From assembly GCA_943359335.1 (NCBI GenBank), contig CALRHC010000001.1, forward strand, positions 22,466 to 86,465: a stretch of 64,000 bases of DNA, in the 5' to 3' direction. Position numbers and translations under genes: made by a program. Shown in pieces: positions 3,540-64,000 of the stretch (position 1 is its first letter; each line of letters begins with the position of its first letter). The notes beneath the pieces were generated by a model that searched no databases, was not told where the DNA came from, and worked only from the letters and a program-made list of their open reading frames with translations. The stretch comes from Candidatus Yanofskybacteria bacterium. Its GTDB lineage: Bacteria; Patescibacteriota; Minisyncoccia; JACQLN01.

Positions 3540-5474
3540 ATGATTCGTCGTCTGCTTTGTCTTTTTGCTATTTTGCTAGGCTTAAACGCCTGCGATAGCA
3601 AACGTGATGCGAACAAGATTTTGTCGCCAAATGTGGATGAAGAAGTGGTGGTCGCCCAAACGGAAAAAGAAGATACATCTTCTTGGGATTTAACCAAGGA
3701 TGTGTCTCTAGATTCTGTGCTGGCTATGCCAGTAGGTACAAAGATGTATTTTCGTACGGCTTTCGTCGGTAAGGTTTTGGAAGATTTCGAAGTCACTTTA
3801 GGTTATGGCAAAGTCGTATATGACCTCACTGCGCCGATGCCAGTGATACACTTGATAGCTTCCGACTCGAGGCTAATCGCTTTGGGTGGAGTATCTCACG
3901 GTATGAGTGGATCCCCAGTTTTTACCAAGGACGGCAAGGTCGGTGCGTTATCCATGAGTTTCGATGAGCAGACTGAGGACAAGAACATTGCTTTTTTTGC
4001 GACGTCGATTGAATGGATGAGGAAGGAAATTCCCAACAAGGAAATCAGGCTGGGTAAGCCGGTGGTTTGGAGGGGGTACATTGTAAGGCCATTGGCTCTT
4101 CCTCTGCTGATGTCTGGCGTTAACAATCATCTGATGAATGCGGCCATTCTCGAATACGCCGACAAACTGGGCGACGGCAATCTCAATATGTTATCGGCAT
4201 CAGGTTCGGCCGGAGCCGGTGGTAATATTGAACAGAAGTTTGAAGATGGTAGCCCGTTGACCGGAGTATTATTTACGGGAGACGAGGTGATCATCGGTGC
4301 CACAGGAACGGCAACCGATGTCCGAGGCAATAACATTTTCGGTTTCGGCCATCCCTGGTGGGGTAACGGGCAGACTTCGTTAGCCATGGTGGCCACCGAA
4401 ATTCTGGCCGAGGTTAGTGGTCCGTCGCCGTTCAAGTTAGCCAGGTTGGGCAATAAGGTTCTTGGGGAAATTATTTACGACCGTATGCCTGGAGTTGGGG
4501 GAGTTTTGGGCCAAATGCCCGAAATGATTCCCTTGGTTTTTAACGCTTCAATTTTTGGCGAGAAGGCGTTAAGCATGAATCATCAAATGTCTCCGGTAGT
4601 TTTATCCGGTTTCGACATGTTCATGCAGGCCATAATGGCCGGTACCACACTTCTTTCTCCTCTGGCCAATAGGCTAGACAATGCCAACGACAAAAGTTTG
4701 ATAGTTCGGACCAAAATCGACTTTAAGGGTTCTAACTTGAAGGTTGATTTTGAAAGGACTTATGCCCAGCCTCATGCTGGTGTATTGGATTTGATGAATG
4801 GTCCTTTGTTTGGTTTTGTTAATGCCTATTTAGGTTCTGTGGGTAACGATTATGCTGATCTGAAAGTTAGCAACATCCAAATGAATGTGGATGTTGTGGA
4901 CGAACCTTTGTTCGCAATCATACAAGGCTTCGAGGCGGATAGTGTCGTTACCGCTGGTAGTGATTTGCCAGTTAAGATCAGTTTAAGGGTTGGAGCAACT
5001 AAAGACGTCGATCTTAACTTGGCTTTTGCTGTGCCGGATAGTTTTGAGGCCGGCATCTATAGCCTGACGGTGGGTTCACTCGCAGCTTTGGAATATTCTT
5101 CCTATGAACCTTCCGATCCGAGCAAGTTTAAAAATCTGGAAGATGTGTTTGAAGACATCAACGAGGTTGATGGTAGTACCACTTTAAAGCTGGTTTTGTC
5201 TTTCAACGAGCCTTTGCCAGTGGAGGCCCCAGATAGCTTGGTGATTGTTGTGCCTGATACAGTAGTTGTGCCTGCTGATACAGTAAAGGTGGATTCACTG
5301 ATGCCTGTGCCACCACCAGTGATGGGTGGTGGTTCGATTGTGTCCTCACCAGGATTGCTACCTCCTTATCAAGAATCTATTGTCTATAACGATAAAGCCA
5401 GTATGGAAAAAAAGATAGACTGGGTTTTGCAGTATGATACAGGTACGGTTAAGGTGAAGGCGATGAAGAAGTAA
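3540..5474 (+). CDS. exported lipoprotein with SpoIVB/S55-like serine-peptidase motif (GMSGSP...GK.GA) and C-terminal Pro/Val-rich repeats
   Basis: ATG at 3540 preceded by GGAGG (the ORF-track start at 3528 is a GTG inside the SD); signal peptide MIRRLLCLFAILLGLNAC with a lipobox Cys; motif GGVSHGMSGSPVFTKDGKVGALSMSF resembles the catalytic-Ser region of peptidase S55; GC about 45-50% versus about 34% genome. Confidence 0.45.
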   Translation: MIRRLLCLFAILLGLNACDSKRDANKILSPNVDEEVVVAQTEKEDTSSWDLTKDVSLDSVLAMPVGTKMYFRTAFVGKVLEDFEVTLGYGKVVYDLTAPMPVIHLIASDSRLIALGGVSHGMSGSPVFTKDGKVGALSMSFDEQTEDKNIAFFATSIEWMRKEIPNKEIRLGKPVVWRGYIVRPLALPLLMSGVNNHLMNAAILEYADKLGDGNLNMLSASGSAGAGGNIEQKFEDGSPLTGVLFTGDEVIIGATGTATDVRGNNIFGFGHPWWGNGQTSLAMVATEILAEVSGPSPFKLARLGNKVLGEIIYDRMPGVGGVLGQMPEMIPLVFNASIFGEKALSMNHQMSPVVLSGFDMFMQAIMAGTTLLSPLANRLDNANDKSLIVRTKIDFKGSNLKVDFERTYAQPHAGVLDLMNGPLFGFVNAYLGSVGNDYADLKVSNIQMNVDVVDEPLFAIIQGFEADSVVTAGSDLPVKISLRVGATKDVDLNLAFAVPDSFEAGIYSLTVGSLAALEYSSYEPSDPSKFKNLEDVFEDINEVDGSTTLKLVLSFNEPLPVEAPDSLVIVVPDTVVVPADTVKVDSLMPVPPPVMGGGSIVSSPGLLPPYQESIVYNDKASMEKKIDWVLQYDTGTVKVKAMKK

Positions 5475-5554: not shown

Positions 5555-6871
5555 ATGTTGCAAAATCCGTTTAGTTTAATATTCGATATTTTGGGAGTAG
5601 TCTCACACCATATTTGGTTATGGGGTTGGGTTTTTTTGCCGATTCTTTTGGCACCATTTTTATGGGATGCCTATATGTACCACATTCGTATTAAAACTTT
5701 AAAAAAATTTAAATGGCAGATGTTGGAATTTCGCTTACCGCCAGATGTGGAAAAAAGCCCATTGGCAATGGAACAGGTTTTAGCAATCTTACAAAGCACT
5801 CTTTTTAAAGGTGGTTGGTGGAAACGCTATGTGGAAGGGCGCGTTCAAGAATGGTTTAGTTTAGAAATAACTTCTTTCGAAGGCGAATTACATTTTTATA
5901 TTCGAACACTTGGGCAATTTAGAAATTTAGTTGAGGCGGCAATTTATGCACAATATCCACAAGCCGAAATTTTTGATGCTGAAGATTATACGGCAAACGT
6001 TCCAGCAATAATCCCAAACGAAACCCACGACCTTTTTGGTTGCGAACTTAAATTGGCACGTGAAGATGGTTACCCAATACGCACCTATAAAGATTTCGAA
6101 TTAAAGACCGAAAGTAGCAAAGAAGGTGGTTCTAATATTTCTTTGGTGGATCCTTTGGCGGGCATAGCCGAAACAATGACGCGTTTAAAAAAAGGTGAAC
6201 AAGCTTGGATTCAAATCGCTATAAGACCAACCGATGACGGTTGGAAAAAAGTAGCAATGGAGACGGTTTTAAAATTAGTCGGGCGCCCTAAAAAAGAAGT
6301 GCCACAGGGTTCTTATATGTGGGCGTTACTTAAAAAAGAATTATCCGATTTTGCTAAGGGAGCAGTGCAAGCGCCTTTTAAAACTCCGGAATTTGAACCT
6401 TTTGAATGGGGTTCACCAAAAAGTGATAAGCCTCACTCATTAATGCAGTTTCTTACTTCGGGTGAAAAAGAAATTATAGAGGCAATAGAAAGAAAAACCT
6501 CTAAAGTGGGTTTTGAGACAGTTATTAGAGTTGTGTATATAGGTACTAAAGAAGCTTTTTATATACCAACATTTTTTCAGGTGGCTTCCGGTTTTAACCA
6601 GTTTAGTACACAAAATTTAAATTCTATAAAAAGAGATGGCGCCACATTAACTGCAGGAAAATTTCCTTTTAAAAAATTTAAAGAAATGCAAAAGAAGAAG
6701 TGGATGTTATATAAATATAGAATTCGCGGCCGACCAGATACTATGTTTGTAATGAATACAGAAGAACTGGCAACACTTTACCACTTCCCAGGACGAGTTG
6801 TTATGGCGCCAAGCTTGCCTAGAGTTCAAGCTAAAAAAGGCGAACCACCAGCAGGATTACCCAGTTATTAG
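5555..6871 (+). CDS. hypothetical membrane protein (2 N-terminal TM segments plus large soluble domain), putative partner of the downstream ATPase
   Basis: 438 aa; hydrophobic N-terminus LIFDILGVVSHHIWLWGWVFLPILLAPFLW; no catalytic motif recognised. Confidence 0.5.
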   Translation: MLQNPFSLIFDILGVVSHHIWLWGWVFLPILLAPFLWDAYMYHIRIKTLKKFKWQMLEFRLPPDVEKSPLAMEQVLAILQSTLFKGGWWKRYVEGRVQEWFSLEITSFEGELHFYIRTLGQFRNLVEAAIYAQYPQAEIFDAEDYTANVPAIIPNETHDLFGCELKLAREDGYPIRTYKDFELKTESSKEGGSNISLVDPLAGIAETMTRLKKGEQAWIQIAIRPTDDGWKKVAMETVLKLVGRPKKEVPQGSYMWALLKKELSDFAKGAVQAPFKTPEFEPFEWGSPKSDKPHSLMQFLTSGEKEIIEAIERKTSKVGFETVIRVVYIGTKEAFYIPTFFQVASGFNQFSTQNLNSIKRDGATLTAGKFPFKKFKEMQKKKWMLYKYRIRGRPDTMFVMNTEELATLYHFPGRVVMAPSLPRVQAKKGEPPAGLPSY

Positions 6872-30260: not shown

Positions 30261-30336
30261 TGGCTGTGCCCCAGGGAGTCGAACCCCGATAGCCTCCTCG
30301 TTTAGAGGTGGTGTCCTGCCATTGAACGAGGGCACA
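30261..30336 (-). tRNA. tRNA of unresolved identity with non-canonical anticodon arm (19 nt in place of 17)
   Basis: Acceptor UGUGCCC/GGGCACA (U1-A72), D-arm GUUC-AAUGGCA-GGAC, T-arm CGGGG-UUCGACU-CCCUG, encoded GCCA; anticodon region CCACCUCUAAACGAGGAGG folds only as an imperfect stem with a 5-, 7- (CUAAACG) or 9-nt loop. Confidence 0.5.
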
Positions 30337-36959: not shown

Positions 36960-37124
36960 AGACCCGAGTTTATCAGGTTTTACTTGCCAAAACAAGAGGT
37001 TTAGGTTGACTATTGACAATACCTTTAATATAGACTATACTATAACCATAGTTCATTTTTTATAAAATAGGCGGCGACGGCCTATGACGGTCGCTATTTA
37101 AATGTTTTTCAATGGGAGGTTCCT

Positions 37125-37946
37125 ATGAGTTCTTCGAGGCAGTTGGTTGAGAGGTTGGAGAAGGCGGAAGTTCAAAGAAACACCCGTCTCAATCCGATGA
37201 CGGTCATCGGGAAAGAAGAGATCATGCTCCGGTGGAGCAAACAGCAGATCGCGATCCTTATCCCTGGGGACAAGATCATGACTGACCTCTACGAAGAGGC
37301 TCTGGAAGCTGATCCCTGCATGGTGCTCCGCGACGGCGATTCGTTCGAGTACGAGGGTGTCGACGAACACGGACGAAAAATAAAGTACTGGGTGACCTGC
37401 TACCTAAACGAACATGGCTTGGCTCGTTACAGCCGTGACGACGAGACCAAGAAAAACACTCGAGAGAGGTACCAGACAGAGGCTGCAGAGATCGCCAAGC
37501 TGAAGGACACCTATGGTTTCGATGGTGTCGCCATCAACAAGTTGAGAGCGGCATCCCGAGTAGGGCTTCTGCTTTCCCCTGTGGTTTGGCTCGAGAATGC
37601 TTTGAAGATGCAGGGTGAGGCAGATGTGGTGAGGAATCTTCTCGCAACTCTCTTCAAGGGTGCTGAGAATTTTCCGGAGAAAGAATTCCGGAGCATCCTG
37701 AATCACATCGGCTTCGAACCCCCCGTTGAAACTGGCAGGGACTTTGTCTCCGTATGCTTCGGGGTGAGGGCTTTGCTGGTGAACATCGACTTTGGCAAGA
37801 AGGTTGTTGAGCCCGAGACCAATGGTCACGCGAAGATCAACGGCAACGGTTACCACAATCCCTCCGAAGACGGGCCTGCCATCGGTCCAGAACACGCCAA
37901 ACGGGCGGCTGGCATCAGCGAAACGTTCGCGCCGGTCGTCCAGTAA
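37125..37946 (+). CDS. hypothetical protein (273 aa) in a GC-rich (about 55%) laterally acquired insert; own SD GGGAGG and terminator
   Basis: Sharp compositional break versus flanking about 34% GC; many antisense ORFs typical of high-GC coding DNA; no motif recognised. Confidence 0.55.
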   Translation: MSSSRQLVERLEKAEVQRNTRLNPMTVIGKEEIMLRWSKQQIAILIPGDKIMTDLYEEALEADPCMVLRDGDSFEYEGVDEHGRKIKYWVTCYLNEHGLARYSRDDETKKNTRERYQTEAAEIAKLKDTYGFDGVAINKLRAASRVGLLLSPVVWLENALKMQGEADVVRNLLATLFKGAENFPEKEFRSILNHIGFEPPVETGRDFVSVCFGVRALLVNIDFGKKVVEPETNGHAKINGNGYHNPSEDGPAIGPEHAKRAAGISETFAPVVQ

Positions 37947-37970
37947 TAGCTACAAGTAAGCAGTACCTTA

Positions 37971-38000
37971 AGAGGTTCCTAAACAGGAACCTCTTTTTTA
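37971..38000 (+). terminator. intrinsic terminator AGAGGTTCCT-AAAC-AGGAACCTCT + TTTTTTA
   Basis: Perfect 10-bp stem and T-run 25 nt after the stop. Confidence 0.8.
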
Positions 38001-55687: not shown

Positions 55688-55727
55688 CAAAACATCCAGC
55701 TCGCCTAGAGAGCTGGATGTTTTTGTT
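55688..55727. terminator. bidirectional terminator AACATCCAGCTC-GCCTAGA-GAGCTGGATGTT with A-run/T-run; 3' end of both rnhA (+) and rnpB (-)
   Basis: 12-bp perfect stem; core CCAGCT...CCTAGA...AGCTGG repeated at 56221. Confidence 0.7.
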
Positions 55728-56170
55728 AAGAAAGTCGTAAGCCGAATTCTGTCTTGCCTCAACGGCAAGGATAATCATCTGTCTGGGATTGTTATTGCTA
55801 ACAACCTCTGGCGACTCTTCCTTAATAATTTAGATTACTAAGGACACGGTCTTGCACCAAGTGGGGTTTACAACTATTTAGTATTGCTACTAAACAGAAT
55901 CGCGTTTGACGCGACACTTTTCACCTTTAGACTCAATTTTTACATTGAGCTTAGTATAGTCTCTGTTGCATAGGCTCACGGAATCAGCTGTCATCAATGA
56001 ACCTATATCCAATAAAGGACACTTTCCCTGGGCTTGAACCTAATTTTCATTAGATCTGCTCCCGGTTGCATTTCGCAACCACTTGTTTCCTCCGTTTATT
56101 CAACGGATTCGGTGTTCGGACTTTCCTCAATCCATTTTTAGATGAATTGCGATTATCTCACTTTCTTAAC
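55725..56170 (-). ncRNA. rnpB: RNase P RNA (bacterial type)
   Basis: Minus strand carries the universal GAGGAAAGUCCGAACACC (P4 5' strand), ACAGAAUUCGGCUUAC (P4 3' strand) and a perfect P1 GUUAAGAAAGU/ACUUUCUUAAC; minus-strand promoter TTGACT-17-TATCAT at 56205..56177; no ORF of substance. Confidence 0.85.
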
Positions 56171-61230: not shown

Positions 61231-63030
61231 ATGAAACCAGAAACTCAAAATATAAGAAACTTTTCAATAATTGCCCATATCGATCACGGCAAGTCTACTT
61301 TGGCCGATAGGCTTTTAGAATTAACGAAAACCGTAGAAGTGCGCCAGATGCATTCGCAGTATCTAGATATGATGGATTTAGAACAGGAACGTGGCATAAC
61401 CATTAAAATGCAGCCGGTTAGAATGCAATACAATGGTTATATTTTAAATTTAATAGATACACCAGGGCATGTAGATTTTTCCTACGAAGTTTCCCGTTCT
61501 TTGGCTGCAGTAGAAGGCGTTATTTTATTAGTAGATGGAACTAAAGGTATACAAGCGCAAACCTTGGCGCATTTGAGCCAGGCTCAAAAGCAAAATAAAG
61601 TTATAATTGCGGCGGTAAATAAAATAGATTTACCTAATGCTCGCCCAGAAGAAATAGAAGAAGAGTTAAAAAATCTTTTAGGTCAAGATGTAGAAATTTT
61701 TAAAATATCGGCTAAAGACGGCACCAATGTAGATAAGCTTTTAGATACAGTTATAGAAAGAGTGCCTTCACCTAAAAATTCACCAAGCTCTTTAGATAGA
61801 GCTTTGATTTTTGATTCCACTTACGATTCTTACAAAGGAGTTTTAGCATATGTACGTGTTTTTAACGGTAGTTTTAGGGGTGATCAAAAAATAAAATTAA
61901 TCGCTCAAAATAAAGAAGCAGGAATTATGGAAGTTGGGCATTTTAAACCCCAGCTTTCGGTTCAAAAAGAAATCAAAGAAGGGGAAATAGGTTTTATTGC
62001 CACAGGCTTAAAAGACCCTTCACTTATAAGAGTGGGTGACACCGCAGTTATTTTAAATTCGGAATCTCAATTTTTAGATTTAAAAAACTTTGCCCTAGAA
62101 GGTTACAAAGATCCTCGTCCAGTTGTATTTGCCAGTATGTTTCCAAAGGATGGTGCGGAGTTTGCTATGTTAAAAGATTCCTTACTTAAACTTAAACTTT
62201 CCGATGCGGCTTTAACTTTCGAACTAGATTCACAAGAAGTTTTAGGACGAGGTTTTAGATGTGGGTTTTTGGGTTCCTTGCATATGGAAATTGTTTTAGA
62301 ACGCTTGGAACGGGAATATAATTTATCTTTAATAACAACGACACCTTCGGTAAGTTACGAAATAATTTTAAGAGATGGAACAATTCAGAATATTTTCTCG
62401 GCGGCTGATTTGCCAACTTCTGATAGATATTCAGAAGTTCGTGAACCTTGGGTTTCTTTAACTTTGCTTTCACCTTCAAAATATATTGGAGGTATTTTAG
62501 AACTTTTAGCTCACCGCCGCGGAATTTCTAAACACACTGAATATATTTCGGAAGACAGGGTAGAAATTTTTTATGAAATACCCCTTGCCGAAATTATTGT
62601 AGATTTTCACGATAAGTTAAAAAGCGTTTCTTCGGGCTATGCTTCGCTAAGTTACGAATTTTTAGAACTTAGAAAAGGCGATTTAATTAAATTAGATATT
62701 TTAGTAGCAGGTGAACTAGTTGATGCTTTAAGCCGAATTGTGCCGAGCGATCAAGCCCAAGACGAAGGCAAAAGAATTGTAGAAAGATTAAAAGAACTTT
62801 TACCAAGGCAGTGGTTCGAAGTAATGTTACAAGCCGCCATTGGTGGAAAAATAATTGCTCGCGAAAATATCGCCGCTTTAAAGAAAGATGTAACTAGCCA
62901 TATGTATGGAGGCGATATTACACGCAAAATGAAGCTTAGGGAAAAGCAAAAAAAGGGTAAGAAAAAAATGAAAGAAAGGGGAAGAGTAGACATTCCAAAC
63001 TCTGTTTTTTTCGAATTATTAAAGCGCTAG
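61231..63030 (+). CDS. lepA: elongation factor 4 (LepA)
   Basis: G domain AHIDHGKST, DTPGHVDF, NKID; LepA C-terminal domain. Confidence 0.9.
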   Translation: MKPETQNIRNFSIIAHIDHGKSTLADRLLELTKTVEVRQMHSQYLDMMDLEQERGITIKMQPVRMQYNGYILNLIDTPGHVDFSYEVSRSLAAVEGVILLVDGTKGIQAQTLAHLSQAQKQNKVIIAAVNKIDLPNARPEEIEEELKNLLGQDVEIFKISAKDGTNVDKLLDTVIERVPSPKNSPSSLDRALIFDSTYDSYKGVLAYVRVFNGSFRGDQKIKLIAQNKEAGIMEVGHFKPQLSVQKEIKEGEIGFIATGLKDPSLIRVGDTAVILNSESQFLDLKNFALEGYKDPRPVVFASMFPKDGAEFAMLKDSLLKLKLSDAALTFELDSQEVLGRGFRCGFLGSLHMEIVLERLEREYNLSLITTTPSVSYEIILRDGTIQNIFSAADLPTSDRYSEVREPWVSLTLLSPSKYIGGILELLAHRRGISKHTEYISEDRVEIFYEIPLAEIIVDFHDKLKSVSSGYASLSYEFLELRKGDLIKLDILVAGELVDALSRIVPSDQAQDEGKRIVERLKELLPRQWFEVMLQAAIGGKIIARENIAALKKDVTSHMYGGDITRKMKLREKQKKGKKKMKERGRVDIPNSVFFELLKR

Positions 63031-63087
63031 AAAATGGCTTAAAACCGAGTTTTTCTAGCAATATTTACGGTTTTTGGGTTGTAGGAC

Positions 63088-63115
63088 TTGACAGGATTTA
63101 TGGCTATGGTATACT
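63088..63115 (+). promoter_or_regulatory. sigma-70 promoter TTGACA-16-TATACT driving the GC-rich locus
   Basis: Consensus hexamers immediately upstream of the compositional jump. Confidence 0.55.
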
Positions 63116-63118
63116 GGA

Positions 63119-63787
63119 AACATCATTGATCGTTAGCGGTTTCCCTCCCCGAGGGCCACTAGCTGATCATAGTTCATTCATTTTCAAAGAAAGAAAGGAA
63201 GGTGCCAAGTGGACGAGAGCCGTGGACAGCCGTCTGGGTTCACCCTATTCCAAATTTCTCGCTCCGGCTAACCTGGTCCTCGACGACCTGGTCGCCAACT
63301 TCTCCGCCGGCGCTGGCCATACCGAATAGGTTCTGGCCGCAGCCCGCGCGAAGGTGAGTGTAAGTCGACTCAATAGCGAGTCGCTGCTCGCGATGCTCGG
63401 CAACTGCGAAAGTTGCCGAGTCTGCCCGAACGCTCTGGAGACGCCAGATGCGTTATTGTCCGATGGATCGCCCCCGTAACGCGGAGGCTCTACCGTGCCA
63501 AGAAGGCGCTGCGGAATTCCAGGTCCTATTTAGGACGAGGGTTCAGGGAATAAGATTCTCCTAGTGTTGTCTAACTGTTTAGATGATGTCTTCGCTCAAA
63601 TTGTTTCTAGCGAGACAGCCGATCTGGCAGTTCAATGCATAGGATAAAAGAATCTTAACAATCCTCGTCCTGTGTCACCTTTTGGAGTTAGTTAGATGGC
63701 CCTCCGCCTCCTTTCTTTGTTGTTTTAATGAAATTGGGAGCGGACACCCCGATTTCACCCCCGACACTACGGTGTCGGGGCTTTTTA
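63119..63787 (+). other. GC-rich (about 52-55%) promoter- and terminator-bounded locus without a convincing ORF: candidate large structured RNA or decayed foreign gene
   Basis: About 670 nt between the promoter and hairpin CCCCGACAC-TAC-GGTGTCGGGG+TTTTT; only a 67-codon ORF (63126..63329) interrupted by in-frame TAG; GNRA hairpin GGCAAC-UGCGAAAG-UUGCC; sharp GC break from neighbours. Confidence 0.4.
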
Positions 63788-63867
63788 TTTATTTAACACT
63801 AAGTGTTGAACAAATATCCTGAGTGAGTAAAACGAATCGAAGGATTTAAGATGGGTTTTATTTATTA

Positions 63868-63905
63868 AAAAACTCCTTCGATTTGGTATCGGAGGAGTTT
63901 TAGTT
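63868..63905. terminator. CTCCGA-family hairpin AACTCCTTCGA-TTTGGTA-TCGGAGGAGTT
   Basis: 11-bp stem with one G·U; A-run/T-run flanks. Confidence 0.55.
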
Positions 63906-64000
63906 TTCTTGAGGTTCGGTTTCTGCTTTAGCAAAGCTTTTTATTATAGGGTCCATATTGCCATCTAAAACTTTATCTATTTGGCTCCAACTTTTTTTAA

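What the first reader, a model, noticed from the sequence alone, without database searches (positions are those of the whole stretch)
63088..63787. Promoter-to-terminator GC-rich unit with no credible ORF at the end of the window
A consensus promoter (TTGACA-16-TATACT) is followed by about 670 nt of 52-55% GC sequence and a strong terminator. The best ORF is 67 codons and is followed in the same frame, after a single TAG, by another 57 sense codons (...MLGNCESCRVCPNALETPDALLSDGSPP). A GNRA-capped hairpin (GGCAAC-UGCGAAAG-UUGCC) and many GC helices are visible. I considered tmRNA because a GUCGCCAAC resume-like motif is present, but I could not find a GGGG...UCCACCA tRNA-like domain. I could not recognise 6S, cobalamin or T-box signatures either. 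Two options remain: a large structured ncRNA (ornate ROOL/GOLLD-like, or an intron-containing RNA gene), or a recently acquired and already pseudogenised high-GC gene.
Basis: partly seen in the sequence, partly recalled or inferred. Interest (0 to 1): 0.6.

Follow-up and report, generated by a model that had tools for sequence, protein, structure and literature searches.

The report
Structured small-ORF RNA of groundwater Parcubacteria
The GC-rich unit is a real, separately transcribed, heavily folded RNA found only in a few related groundwater CPR bacteria; in relatives it carries a tiny fast-evolving protein gene plus a 10-13-codon mini-gene, and the copy in this window has lost the first by a frameshift.

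Summary
A near-consensus promoter (63088-63115), a 51-62% GC island in a 36% GC genome, a strong terminator (63759-63786) and an exceptionally stable fold (z = -11) sit between lepA and a convergent RF1 gene. No Rfam family, tmRNA, Pfam domain, phage or plasmid matches.

Homologous units occupy the same lepA-RF1 gap in eight related Parcubacteria-type contigs. Two further relatives keep only remnants, and two lack it.

Conserved parts are:
- the promoter
- a covarying 5' hairpin
- a purine tract (extended Shine-Dalgarno) with a start codon
- ORF1 of 38-57 codons, where 9 of 9 indels keep the frame
- a second SD-led mini-ORF of 10-13 codons that always stops at the UAG at the foot of a covarying helix
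- a 3' tract, CCUCCGCCUCCUUUCUUUG, resembling the 16S 3' end, which pairs back to the purine tracts

The window's allele is atypical: ORF1 is frameshifted to a 20-codon stub, one domain is deleted, and the interior cannot be aligned with a relative whose LepA is 98% identical.

Best reading: an undescribed, clade-restricted small-ORF mRNA embedded in a large RNA fold, probably translationally gated by long-range SD/anti-SD pairing and possibly dual-function. The function is inferred, not shown.

The parts
63088..63115 (+). Promoter: -35 TTGACA, 16-nt spacer, TG-extended -10 TATACT. The transcription start near 63122 is inferred.
   Evidence: 11 of 12 matches. The same promoter is found in L102, L004 and L010, and it aligns in all seven members that retain a 5' end.
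63127..63169 (+). 5' hairpin H1. Its apex carries CCUCC.
   Evidence: MFE. RNAalifold on 7 members gives 15 pairs, 7 of them with changes on both sides.
63172..63207 (+). mRNA-type leader (AGTTCATTC...) and purine tract A, CAAAGAAAGAAAGGAAGGUGCCA. Tract A is an extended Shine-Dalgarno. It is the 5' strand of the long-range closing helix (63190-63207 pairs with 63697-63718).
   Evidence: The leader motif is also seen upstream of ordinary genes.
63209..63271 (+). ORF1 stub: GTG start, 20 codons (VDESRGQPSGFTLFQISRSG), TAA stop. It is the N-terminal remnant of the family's 38-57-aa ORF1. An 8-nt deficit shifts the rest of the homologous sequence into the +1 frame, which runs to the TAG at 63327-63329.
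   Evidence: Intact ORF1s in relatives.
63272..63482 (+). Variable GC-rich interior of about 62% GC. It includes the 10-bp hairpin with a GCGAA loop at 63397-63421. It cannot be aligned with other members.
63483..63533 (+). Second Shine-Dalgarno (GGAGG, 63483-63487), a 7-nt spacer, and mini-ORF2 from GTG 63495 (VPRRRCGIPGPI), stopping at UAG 63531-63533.
   Evidence: The same arrangement occurs in all 7 members that can be tested. The chance expectation is 0.1-0.4% per sequence.
63531..63672 (+). Domain C. Helix C (63531-63543, UAGGACGAGGGUU) pairs with C' (63660-63672, AAUCCUCGUCCUG). They enclose a long hairpin that is specific to this allele.
   Evidence: Pair counts: 94.9% of cells paired against 32-49% when the partner is slid, and 5 pairs changed on both sides.
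63697..63719 (+). 3' pyrimidine tract UGGCCCUCCGCCUCCUUUCUUUG. It is a doubled anti-Shine-Dalgarno that resembles the 16S rRNA 3' end. It is the 3' strand of the closing helix. In relatives its left half pairs with purine tract B, which is missing here.
63729..63757 (+). Penultimate hairpin Ht. A hairpin is kept at this position in every member, but with unrelated sequences.
63759..63786 (+). Intrinsic terminator.

Best explanation
The unit is one allele of an undescribed RNA/small-gene family. The family is restricted to a narrow clade of groundwater Parcubacteria-type CPR bacteria and is always placed just downstream of lepA.

The transcript runs about 450-850 nt from promoter to terminator and is a small-ORF mRNA built into a large conserved fold. 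In order it contains:
- a 5' hairpin
- an extended Shine-Dalgarno with ORF1, a 38-57-aa fast-evolving protein with an N-terminal RGxP(F) motif
- variable GC-rich domains
- a second SD with a 10-13-codon mini-ORF that always terminates at the UAG forming the first base pairs of helix C
- a purine tract B
- a 3' tract, CCUCC-R-CCUCCUUUCUU, that looks like the 16S 3' end. It pairs back over 200-750 nt with tract B and with the ORF1 SD tract, closing the molecule.

Inferred mechanism: ORF1 translation is gated by competition between the ribosome's anti-SD and these internal anti-SD tracts. This is a 5'-3' long-distance interaction like that of hok and aapA mRNAs. A ribosome finishing the mini-ORF must melt helix C and could reset the fold. 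The RNA body may also act on its own, as a dual-function RNA.

The window's copy is a derived allele: ORF1 is frameshifted to a 20-codon stub and the whole B..B' domain is deleted. It is still driven by an intact promoter and still folds very stably.

Shown: the family exists, its synteny, the conserved helices, frame conservation in ORF1, and the mini-ORF arrangement.
Inferred: transcription, translation, gating, and any trans activity.
For: **Family and synteny**
- LepA relatives and their contigs.
- nhmmer and blastn matches of the unit lie only in the lepA-RF1 gap.

**Structure**
- z = -11.2.
- H1 has 7 of 15 pairs with double changes.
- C/C' is 94.9% paired against 49% or less in slid controls, with 5 compensatory pairs; 6 of 500 shuffles reach that number.
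- B/B' is 83% paired against 48-62% in slid controls, and one pair splits CG:4 / UA:3 with none broken.
- Long-range A/A' and B/B' helices recur in independent MFE folds.

**ORF1 is coding**
- An SD and a start codon sit at 5-9 nt spacing in every member with a 5' end.
- Indels inside ORF1 are 6; 3, 3, 3, 30; and 3, 18, 30, 3 nt, so 9 of 9 are in frame. In the rest of the unit only 21 of 93 are multiples of 3.
- Gene callers predicted 38-57-aa products in other assemblies. Two further homologs, P0124 and P0128, are about 50% identical to their nearest relatives.

**Mini-ORF2**
- It is present in 7 of 7 testable members and always ends at the UAG at the foot of the helix. The chance expectation is 0.001-0.004 per sequence.
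- L008 and L018 encode the same peptide, MPLGANPPFG, with 4 third-position differences and 0 replacements.

**Window allele**
- An 8-nt deficit against L101 causes the frameshift.
- The B..B' domain is absent.
- The sequence is identical in independent assemblies: full length in two, and the first 224 nt in a third contig that ends there.

**Design parallel**
- SD sequestered by a distant 3' anti-SD in hok and aapA mRNAs (PMC6733600).
Against: - There are no expression, ribosome-profiling or probing data.
- Partition-function folding does not consistently pair the ORF1 SD with the 3' tract. It does so in the window and L018; in the other members the partners are local or elsewhere. Removing the 3' tract in silico does not consistently open the SD. 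Gating therefore rests on conserved complementarity, not on thermodynamic prediction.
- The ORF1 amino-acid sequence is poorly conserved and replacements outnumber silent changes.
- ORF1 GC3 is 0.80-0.89 against a genome mean of 0.27, which is odd for an expressed native gene.
- ORF1 has been lost twice without loss of the RNA: by frameshift in the window and by deletion in L008. The RNA body therefore cannot exist only to control ORF1.
- Only 6-7 sequences support the covariation, and the shuffle control for B/B' is not significant.
- No close homolog of the window's own interior exists, so its hairpins between 63272 and 63482 are supported by energy alone.
Confidence: 0.5

Rival explanations
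1. The unit is primarily a trans-acting regulatory or ribosome-directed RNA. The doubled anti-SD tract, a look-alike of the 16S 3' end, would be the business end. It would bind SD regions of other mRNAs, or its purine tracts would titrate 30S subunits. The internal SD-like tracts would only mask it, and the ORFs would be secondary, as the hld ORF is in RNAIII.
For: - The 3' tract is the most conserved element. It survives in remnants that have lost its internal partners: L006 keeps CACCTCCGCCTCCTTTCTT with a hairpin and terminator, and L099 keeps the promoter fused to CACCTCCTCCTTTCC and a terminator.
- The RNA persists where ORF1 is destroyed.
- The neighbourhood is all translation genes: lepA, RF1, L31, S2 and Tsf.
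- Dual-function RNAs with C-rich anti-SD motifs are known (reviews found).
Against: - In the full-length RNAs the tract is predicted to be paired, not exposed.
- No target was sought or found.
- In one subfamily the CCUCC at the apex of H1 is predicted to lie within a stem.
- Frame conservation in ORF1 shows that coding matters in most members.
Confidence: 0.2
2. The unit is a purely noncoding large structured RNA of a new class. The SD-start-ORF arrangements would be by-products of GGAGG/CCUCC-rich helices in GC-rich sequence, where stop codons are rare.
For: - The fold is extreme and the helices are conserved.
- Open frames of 40-60 codons are common by chance at 65% GC (my estimate of 0.2-0.4 per frame, from base composition).
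- dN/dS is not visibly below 1 in ORF1.
- Some silent changes in ORF2 are also compensatory within a hairpin (GGGAG/CUCCC in L008 against GGGCG/CGCCC in L018).
Against: - 9 of 9 indels inside ORF1 are in frame, against 23% elsewhere in the unit.
- The mini-ORF arrangement has a chance probability of 0.001-0.004 per sequence yet occurs in 7 of 7.
- P0121 and P0128 share RG.PFGF.P ... ISDLA.GLP.PA at the protein level.
- An ordinary mRNA leader motif precedes the SD.
Confidence: 0.13
3. The unit is a type I toxin-antitoxin-like locus. ORF1 would be a small toxin, kept silent by the 5'-3' long-distance interaction and activated by 3' processing. Frequent inactivation (window, L008, remnants) would reflect counter-selection.
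For: [quoted passage not shown]
- ORF1 evolves fast and has been lost or decayed repeatedly.
- ORF1 of L004 has a membrane-like stretch, with a best 15-aa hydropathy of 1.71.
Against: - No conserved antisense promoter or terminator lies inside the unit.
- Most ORF1 products are not hydrophobic; the best windows score 0.35-1.33.
- It is a single syntenic copy with no second copy in 64 kb.
- The transcript is 2-4 times longer than known toxin mRNAs and carries extra conserved domains.
Confidence: 0.1
4. The unit is the decaying remnant of a horizontally acquired high-GC protein gene, or it belongs to a known RNA family (tmRNA, intron, ROOL/GOLLD/OLE) too diverged for the models.
For: - GC and GC3 are far above the genome's.
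- A frameshifted ORF is present.
Against: - The unit is syntenic and inherited vertically across genomes whose LepA is 75-98% identical.
- GC stays high and the fold stays stable, which neutral decay would not preserve.
- No Pfam hit, and no protein homolog beyond the tiny family among 5.8 billion non-redundant sequences and 1.84 billion cluster representatives.
- No phage or plasmid similarity.
- No Rfam or ARAGORN match for the window or for six fuller members.
Confidence: 0.04

Closest known systems
hok/Sok and aapA/IsoA type I toxin mRNAs (5'-3' long-distance interaction)
   Same: - A small ORF whose Shine-Dalgarno region is complementary to an anti-SD tract at the extreme 3' end of the same transcript, which closes the molecule.
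- Additional upstream or nearby anti-SD-like elements.
- A very stable fold.
- A rapidly evolving peptide.
   Different: - No antisense antitoxin signal.
- The peptides are mostly not hydrophobic.
- The transcript is 450-850 nt rather than about 200-400 nt, with several extra conserved domains and a second mini-ORF.
- It is a single syntenic chromosomal copy inherited vertically.
- Thermodynamic models do not consistently show that the SD is released when the 3' end is removed.
Dual-function RNAs such as Staphylococcus RNAIII (hld), SgrS/SgrT, SR1/SR1P and VcdRP
   Same: - One promoter-to-terminator transcript combines a small ORF near the 5' end with a long, multi-hairpin body closed by long-range helices.
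- It carries C/U-rich anti-SD-like motifs.
   Different: - No sequence or covariance-model homology.
- The anti-SD tract is predicted to be paired rather than displayed in loops.
- No target is known.
- The organism group (CPR) and the lepA-linked location are new.
Leader-peptide (ribosome-sensing) control elements such as erm, cat and trp-type leaders
   Same: An SD-led mini-ORF of 10-13 codons whose stop codon lies inside a conserved helix. A terminating or stalled ribosome must therefore remodel the downstream structure.
   Different: - No gene lies downstream in cis. The next element is the transcript's own terminator, followed by a convergent gene.
- The peptide sequence is not conserved beyond the first residues (MP..).
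Large ornate bacterial ncRNAs (ROOL, GOLLD, OLE, raiA) and tmRNA
   Same: - Size of 0.5-0.9 kb.
- GC-rich island in an AT-rich genome.
- Own promoter and terminator.
- Multi-domain fold.
- Like tmRNA, it holds a short ORF whose stop codon lies in a helix, and some members have a T-arm.
   Different: - No covariance model matches, even at E<=10.
- It lacks a tRNA-like domain with an acceptor stem formed by the two ends and a CCA terminus.
- Its ORFs have SD and start codons.
- Its taxonomic range is very narrow and its interior is highly variable.

Membership tests
tmRNA (ssrA) | A tRNA-like domain formed by the 5' and 3' ends (acceptor stem, T-arm, CCA), detectable by ARAGORN or the Rfam tmRNA models. 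| tested here: not met
   ARAGORN finds only two tRNAs elsewhere in the window. No tmRNA model matches at E<=10 in 62900-64000, or at E<=5 in six fuller relatives. The ends pair as purine and pyrimidine tracts, not as an acceptor stem.
tmRNA (ssrA) | A tag reading frame without SD or start codon that ends in a hydrophobic degron. | tested here: not met
   Both small ORFs have an SD and an ATG or GTG start. The peptides end in ..PI..RS..LR..PR..FG and ..IK.
ROOL / GOLLD / OLE / raiA / HEARO and other Rfam large ncRNAs | A match to the family covariance model. | tested here: not met
   Searches give nothing at gathering score. The sub-threshold hits cover only the terminator or the adjacent 3'-end hairpins.
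Group I / group II introns | The conserved catalytic core, detected by Rfam models, and insertion within a host gene. | tested here: not met
   No intron model hit. The unit has its own promoter and terminator in an intergenic gap.
Type I toxin-antitoxin | A small, usually hydrophobic, membrane-active toxin ORF. | tested here: inconclusive
   ORF1 is 38-57 aa and coding. Only the L004 product has a membrane-like segment (hydropathy 1.71); the others score 0.35-1.33. Toxicity cannot be tested here.
Type I toxin-antitoxin | A cis- or trans-encoded antisense RNA antitoxin. | tested here: not met
   No conserved minus-strand promoter or terminator lies within the unit in the window, L102, L004 or L010. 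The 9-of-12 minus-strand site at 63208-63180 is not conserved.
Type I toxin-antitoxin | SD sequestration by a 5'-3' long-distance interaction that 3' processing relieves. | tested here: inconclusive
   Conserved complementarity exists, and MFE helices join tract A to the 3' tract. Ensemble calculations give inconsistent SD partners and no consistent opening on truncation.
Dual-function (coding and regulatory) bacterial RNA | A translated small ORF within the transcript. | tested here: met
   This is met at the comparative level only: 9 of 9 indels are in frame against 23% elsewhere, the SD and start are conserved, and protein homologs exist. The window's own ORF1 is frameshifted.
Dual-function (coding and regulatory) bacterial RNA | A base-pairing or protein-binding regulatory activity of the RNA itself. 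| not testable with these tools
   The support is indirect only. The structured body and the 3' tract are conserved where ORF1 is lost.
Pseudogene of a known protein family | Significant similarity of any frame to a described protein family. | tested here: not met
   Pfam gives no hits for 7 ORF fragments at E<=1. Profile searches of 5.8 billion and 1.84 billion proteins return only the family's own 38-57-aa members plus repeat artefacts.

The most novel reading that the evidence does not exclude
The RNA is a translation-state sensor or modulator specific to these CPR bacteria. It would be a transcript that mimics both partners of the SD/anti-SD interaction, with a doubled copy of the 16S 3' tail and super-SD tracts. 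It would use a UAG-terminated mini-ORF, where UAG is read only by RF1, to report termination or initiation capacity. The neighbouring RF1 gene is unusual in lacking domain 1. The RNA would act in trans on ribosomes or mRNAs rather than on its own ORF.
Probability: 0.1. Interest if true: 0.8.

Novelty: new variant of a known kind. Interest (0 to 1): 0.5.

Why it matters
CPR/Patescibacteria have tiny genomes with very little spare DNA, and few regulatory RNAs have been described in them. This is a 0.5-0.9 kb transcript with its own conserved promoter, kept at one chromosomal site across species. It combines a fast-evolving micro-protein, a ribosome-read mini-ORF and a fold built from Shine-Dalgarno/anti-Shine-Dalgarno look-alikes.

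If the gating or trans-acting model is right, it would be the first riboregulatory module of this design in the CPR. It would also be a natural example of an RNA that imitates the 16S 3' tail.

The family's behaviour also suggests a locus under unusual selection. Its interior cannot be aligned between genomes that are 88% identical in flanking DNA. Whole domains are lost, and only remnants survive in some relatives.

It also shows that gene callers and 'no ORF' heuristics can miss, or only half-see, such hybrid genes.

Tried and rejected
- **Rfam.** Searched at gathering score and at permissive E-values, on the window and on six relatives. Only terminator look-alikes came up.
- **ARAGORN for tmRNA**: none.
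- **Pfam on all small ORF fragments**: none.
- **blastn against phages and plasmids**: none.
- **Metagenome pattern scan with the 5' leader motif**. It re-found only the L004-type allele (L015). The other four hits were chance, either ordinary gene leaders or an AT-rich eukaryote-like contig.
- **Viral-contig scans with the 3' tract and the leader motif**. The 3' tract is not specific (more than 120 hits), and nhmmer found no homolog among them.
- **Genome-collection scan with LepA**. It gave 80 loci, of which only L018 carries the unit. L019 and L020 end too close to lepA to tell.
- **Programmed frameshift in the window's ORF1.** Rejected because there is no slippery site at the frame junction, and an 8-nt deletion relative to L101 explains it.
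- **UGA recoding as a cause of 'missing' ORFs.** Rejected because UGA terminates two genes and no gene needs read-through.
- **The other GC-rich islands in the window** (4051-4550 and 37101-38000). They lie inside long ORFs and are unrelated.
- **In-silico truncation as support for the gating model.** The result was inconsistent and is reported as evidence against.
- **Look-up limit.** Look-ups of encoding contigs were exhausted (12 of 12), so the contigs of P0124 and P0128 could not be fetched.
Full report

Yes. The window comes from a Patescibacteria/CPR genome with 36% GC. Its LepA is closest to 'Patescibacteria group', 'Minisyncoccia' and 'Parcubacteria group' MAGs.

Downstream of murJ-lepA (lepA ends at 63030) lie four features:
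- A near-consensus sigma-70 promoter, TTGACA-16-TGgTATACT, at 63088-63115. It matches 11 of 12 positions.
- A stretch whose 200-nt GC reaches 0.62.
- A 9-bp, 7-GC terminator stem at 63759-63780, followed by a T run.
- A convergent gene, beyond the terminator, whose own terminator lies at 63869-63901.

The plus-strand RNA folds at -274 kcal/mol, against -215 +/- 5 for dinucleotide shuffles (z = -11.2). The minus strand gives z = -4.5.

The 67-codon TTG ORF and the same-frame continuation after a TAG are there, but the continuation is 49 sense codons, not 57. The 'GNRA' hairpin is a 10-bp stem with a GCGAA pentaloop.

Nothing known matches:
- No Rfam family at gathering score, and only terminator look-alikes at E<=10.
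- No tmRNA by ARAGORN.
- No Pfam hit for any ORF fragment.
- No similarity to phages or plasmids.

**2. Relatives**

Contigs encoding LepA proteins 67-100% identical to the window's were fetched. So were 80 LepA loci from GTDB species representatives.

The order murJ - lepA - [gap] - RF gene (convergent) - L31, followed by S2 - Tsf, is conserved. The gap varies in what it holds.

| State | Loci | LepA identity to window |
|---|---|---|
| Homologous unit | L102 | 98% |
| Homologous unit | L101 | 95% |
| Homologous unit | L004 (= L005 = L015) | 92% |
| Homologous unit | L010 | 78% |
| Homologous unit | L008 | 77% |
| Homologous unit | L018 | 76% |
| Homologous unit, 5' part lost in an assembly gap | L098 | 75% |
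| Remnant: 3' 200 nt only | L006 | 78% |
| Remnant: promoter fused to about 85 nt with CACCTCCTCCTTTCC, plus a terminator | L099 | 73% |
| Absent | L011/L012, L100 | 67-74% |

No other copy lies in the 64-kb window. No copy was found in the other 77 LepA loci, in the metagenome pattern scan, or in viral contigs.

The family is therefore real, inherited vertically at one site, and narrow in range.

**3. Anatomy shared by the members**

a. **Promoter.** It is conserved, with TG-extended -10 boxes. About 70 nt of A/T-rich upstream sequence is also conserved.

b. **Hairpin H1.** RNAalifold on seven sequences gives 15 pairs. Seven of them show changes on both sides that keep the pair.

c. **Leader and tract A.**
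- An mRNA-type leader motif, AGTTC(A/T)TT(C/A)A, comes first. The same motif is seen shortly after the -10 boxes of ordinary genes.
- It is followed by a purine tract, (C)AAAGAAAGGAGG(U), which is an extended Shine-Dalgarno.
- A start codon follows 5-9 nt later.

d. **ORF1.** See section 4.

e. **Variable GC-rich domains.**

f. **Second SD and mini-ORF.**
- A GGAGG is followed after 6-9 nt by ATG or GTG and then a mini-ORF of 10-13 codons.
- The mini-ORF ends, in all seven testable members, at the UAG that forms the first pairs of helix C.
- The peptides are VPRRRCGIPGPI, MPRIGTNFLPKRS, MPRTGVYFQHNLR, MTKRRLFYLPNPR, MPLGANPPFG (twice) and MYLLQRYGIK.
- Shuffling the 75 nt upstream of each UAG reproduces such an arrangement in 0.09-0.4% of trials.
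- L008 and L018 encode the identical decapeptide with four third-position differences and no replacement.

g. **Helix C/C'.**
- It reads UAGGRCGAGGGU / ACCCUCGUCCUG and encloses a hairpin.
- 94.9% of cells are paired, against 32-49% when the partner is slid.
- Five of 13 pairs have double changes, and only 6 of 500 shuffles reach that number.

h. **Purine tract B and the 3' tract.**
- Tract B, (AGGAG)-GYGGAGGYGC, pairs with the left half of the 3' tract GCGCCUCCRC|CUCCUUUCUU.
- B/B' is 83% paired against 48-62% for slid controls. One pair splits CG:4 / UA:3 with none broken. L018 carries two further C-G to U-A exchanges.
- The shuffle control for this helix is not significant with seven sequences.
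- The right half of the 3' tract pairs with tract A over 500-750 nt in independent MFE folds.
- The tract as a whole reads like a duplicated 16S rRNA 3' end. From established knowledge, bacterial 16S ends in ...GAUCACCUCCUUUCU.

i. **Penultimate hairpin.** Its position is conserved but its sequences are unrelated.

j. **Terminator.**

**4. Is ORF1 a gene?**

Intact ORF1s are 38 aa (L101), 40 aa (L004), 49 aa (L102), 39 aa (L010) and 57 aa (L018). They share the N-terminal motif x(1-4)-R-G-x-P.

*Evidence that it is coding:*
- In pairwise nucleotide alignments made without regard to codons, the indels inside ORF1 are 6; 3, 3, 3, 30; and 3, 18, 30, 3 nt. That is nine of nine multiples of three. 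In the rest of the same transcripts only 21 of 93 indels are multiples of three.
- Gene callers predicted these peptides in several assemblies.
- A profile search of 5.8 billion proteins and a full HMMER scan of 1.84 billion representatives add two further members, P0124 and P0128. Otherwise they return only repeat artefacts.
- P0128 shares RG.PFGF.P ... ASA.GR ... ISDLA.GLP.PA with the L102 product.

*What is unusual about it:*
- Replacements are at least as frequent as silent changes.
- Its GC3 is 0.80-0.89, against a genome mean of 0.27 +/- 0.08.
- This suggests RNA-level constraints, or deliberately poor translation, dominate its codon choice.

*Is it a toxin?* Only one product (L004) has a membrane-like segment. 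No conserved antisense promoter exists within the unit. A classical type I toxin-antitoxin assignment is therefore not supported.

**5. The window's allele is derived**

- Against L101, the window lacks 8 nt between CAGCCG and TATTCCAAA. The SD-led frame (GTG at 63209) therefore stops after 20 codons at 63269-63271.
- The entire B..B' domain, about 200-260 nt in relatives, is missing. The apex of domain C is replaced by a different, longer hairpin.
- The flanking genes are 88.5% identical in DNA to L102. Within the unit only the first ~145 nt, the 26-nt 3' tract and the terminator still match.
- By contrast, L102 and L004 keep an alignable interior even though each is only 84-88% identical to the window across lepA. 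I did not compare L102 and L004 directly across the flanks.
- The window's interior still has 62% GC, an extreme fold and the mini-ORF/helix C module. Replacement by a divergent allele is therefore more likely than neutral decay. This is an inference.
- The sequence is identical over the full unit in two independent assemblies. It is also identical over the first 224 nt in a third contig, which ends there. The frameshift is therefore not an assembly error.

**6. How it most likely works**

*Shown:*
- A conserved promoter-to-terminator unit.
- Conserved helices.
- A frame-conserved ORF1.
- A mini-ORF whose stop codon lies in a helix.
- Complementary SD-like and anti-SD-like tracts that close the molecule.

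*Inferred:*
- ORF1's ribosome-binding site competes with the internal anti-SD tracts: the 3' tract, possibly the CCUCC at the apex of H1, and a local U-rich strand.
- In several members the extended B tract (AGGAG...) can take the same 3' partner. The SD tract could therefore be either locked or released.
- A ribosome terminating at the mini-ORF's UAG must unwind helix C, which lies just upstream of B, and could shift that balance.
- This is the logic of hok/aapA mRNAs, where successive anti-SD elements and a final 5'-3' long-distance interaction keep a small ORF silent (PMC6733600).

*Caveats:*
- Partition-function calculations do not give a consistent SD partner. Deleting the 3' tract in silico does not consistently open the SD.
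- The RNA survives loss of ORF1 (window, L008), and the 3' tract survives loss of everything else (L006, L099). This argues that the RNA body, or the tract itself, has a function of its own. That would be a dual-function or trans-acting RNA, as in RNAIII-type molecules (reviews found).

*My estimates:*
- About 0.85 that this is a genuine, selected, structured small-ORF transcript family.
- About 0.35-0.4 for the specific gating mechanism.

**7. Comparison and novelty**

It works most like 5'-3'-closed small-ORF mRNAs (hok, aapA) and dual-function RNAs (RNAIII). It is a member of neither:
- No homology to either.
- No antitoxin.
- The peptides are mostly not hydrophobic.
- It is two to four times larger and has a second mini-ORF.

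It fails every membership test for tmRNA, introns and the Rfam large ncRNAs.

I rate it a new variant of a known kind: an undescribed, CPR-restricted family. Interest is moderate at 0.5. The anatomy is unusual and clean. However, the range is a handful of species, the function is inferred, and the copy in this window is a partly degraded allele.

Noticed in passing
window 63900-64000 (cut by the window end); full gene in L001 12670-13416, minus strand: The release-factor gene convergent to the unit is RF1-type (..HRVQRVPRTEKSGRVHTS.., a PxT motif, with GGQ present). It is only 248 aa and begins where domain 2 normally starts, so it appears to lack the N-terminal domain 1. Most relatives have 239-250 aa versions; L098 has 308 aa.
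   Followed up: partly
whole window: Stop-codon use among 46 non-overlapping ORFs of at least 150 aa is TAA 31, TAG 13, TGA 2. TGA still works as a stop, with no sign of recoding. All seven mini-ORFs and four of five intact ORF1s end in TAG.
   Followed up: partly
window 30261-30336 (-): ARAGORN calls a tRNA-Phe with anticodon AAA next to tRNA-Gly(GCC). The Rfam tRNA model reported only the Gly gene at gathering score. An AAA anticodon would be unusual, so this may be a miscall or an odd tRNA.
   Followed up: no
window 55723-56168 (-): RNase P RNA, bacterial class A (145 bits), with an insertion of about 75 nt in one hairpin.
   Followed up: no
window 37125-37946 (+): A 273-aa ORF with no obvious family and a GC3 of about 0.67, against a genome mean of 0.27. 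It is a second compositional island and a possible foreign gene.
   Followed up: no
window 2956, 25109, 34715; also upstream of ORFs in L004, L102, L006, L098: The motif GTTCTTT(A/C)A recurs a few bases after -10 boxes and about 10-25 nt before the Shine-Dalgarno of ordinary genes. The count of 7 against 3.1 expected is not significant on its own. It may be a clade-specific leader or translation-enhancer element. The same motif precedes ORF1 in the unit.
   Followed up: partly
L102 5513-5556; L004 ~6608-6665: The B domain of two relatives holds a perfect T-arm (GGTGG-TTCGAAA-CCACC) stacked on a 7-bp stem (GCGGGTA/TACTCGC). This is a tRNA minihelix-like element that could be a processing site for RNase P or the CCA-adding enzyme. 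It is absent from the window's allele.
   Followed up: partly
L004 7077-7418; L101 6008-6349; L102 6021-6344; L006 3025-3339; L098 4594-4908: A 104-113-aa ORF of unknown function (no Pfam family) is inserted between the unit and RF1 in five relatives. It is absent from the window, L008, L010 and L018.
   Followed up: no
L016 reverse strand ~2477-2499: A chance hit of the pattern scan carries a hammerhead-ribozyme-like core, CTGATGAGTCCGAAAGGACGAAA, just upstream of an ORF.
   Followed up: no
L004 5900-5970; L101 4900-4965; L006 2483-2530: A long inverted repeat, GGTCAGACCTTGGAG...AAGGTCTGACC, sits between the lepA stop and the unit's promoter in some relatives but not in the window.
   Followed up: no
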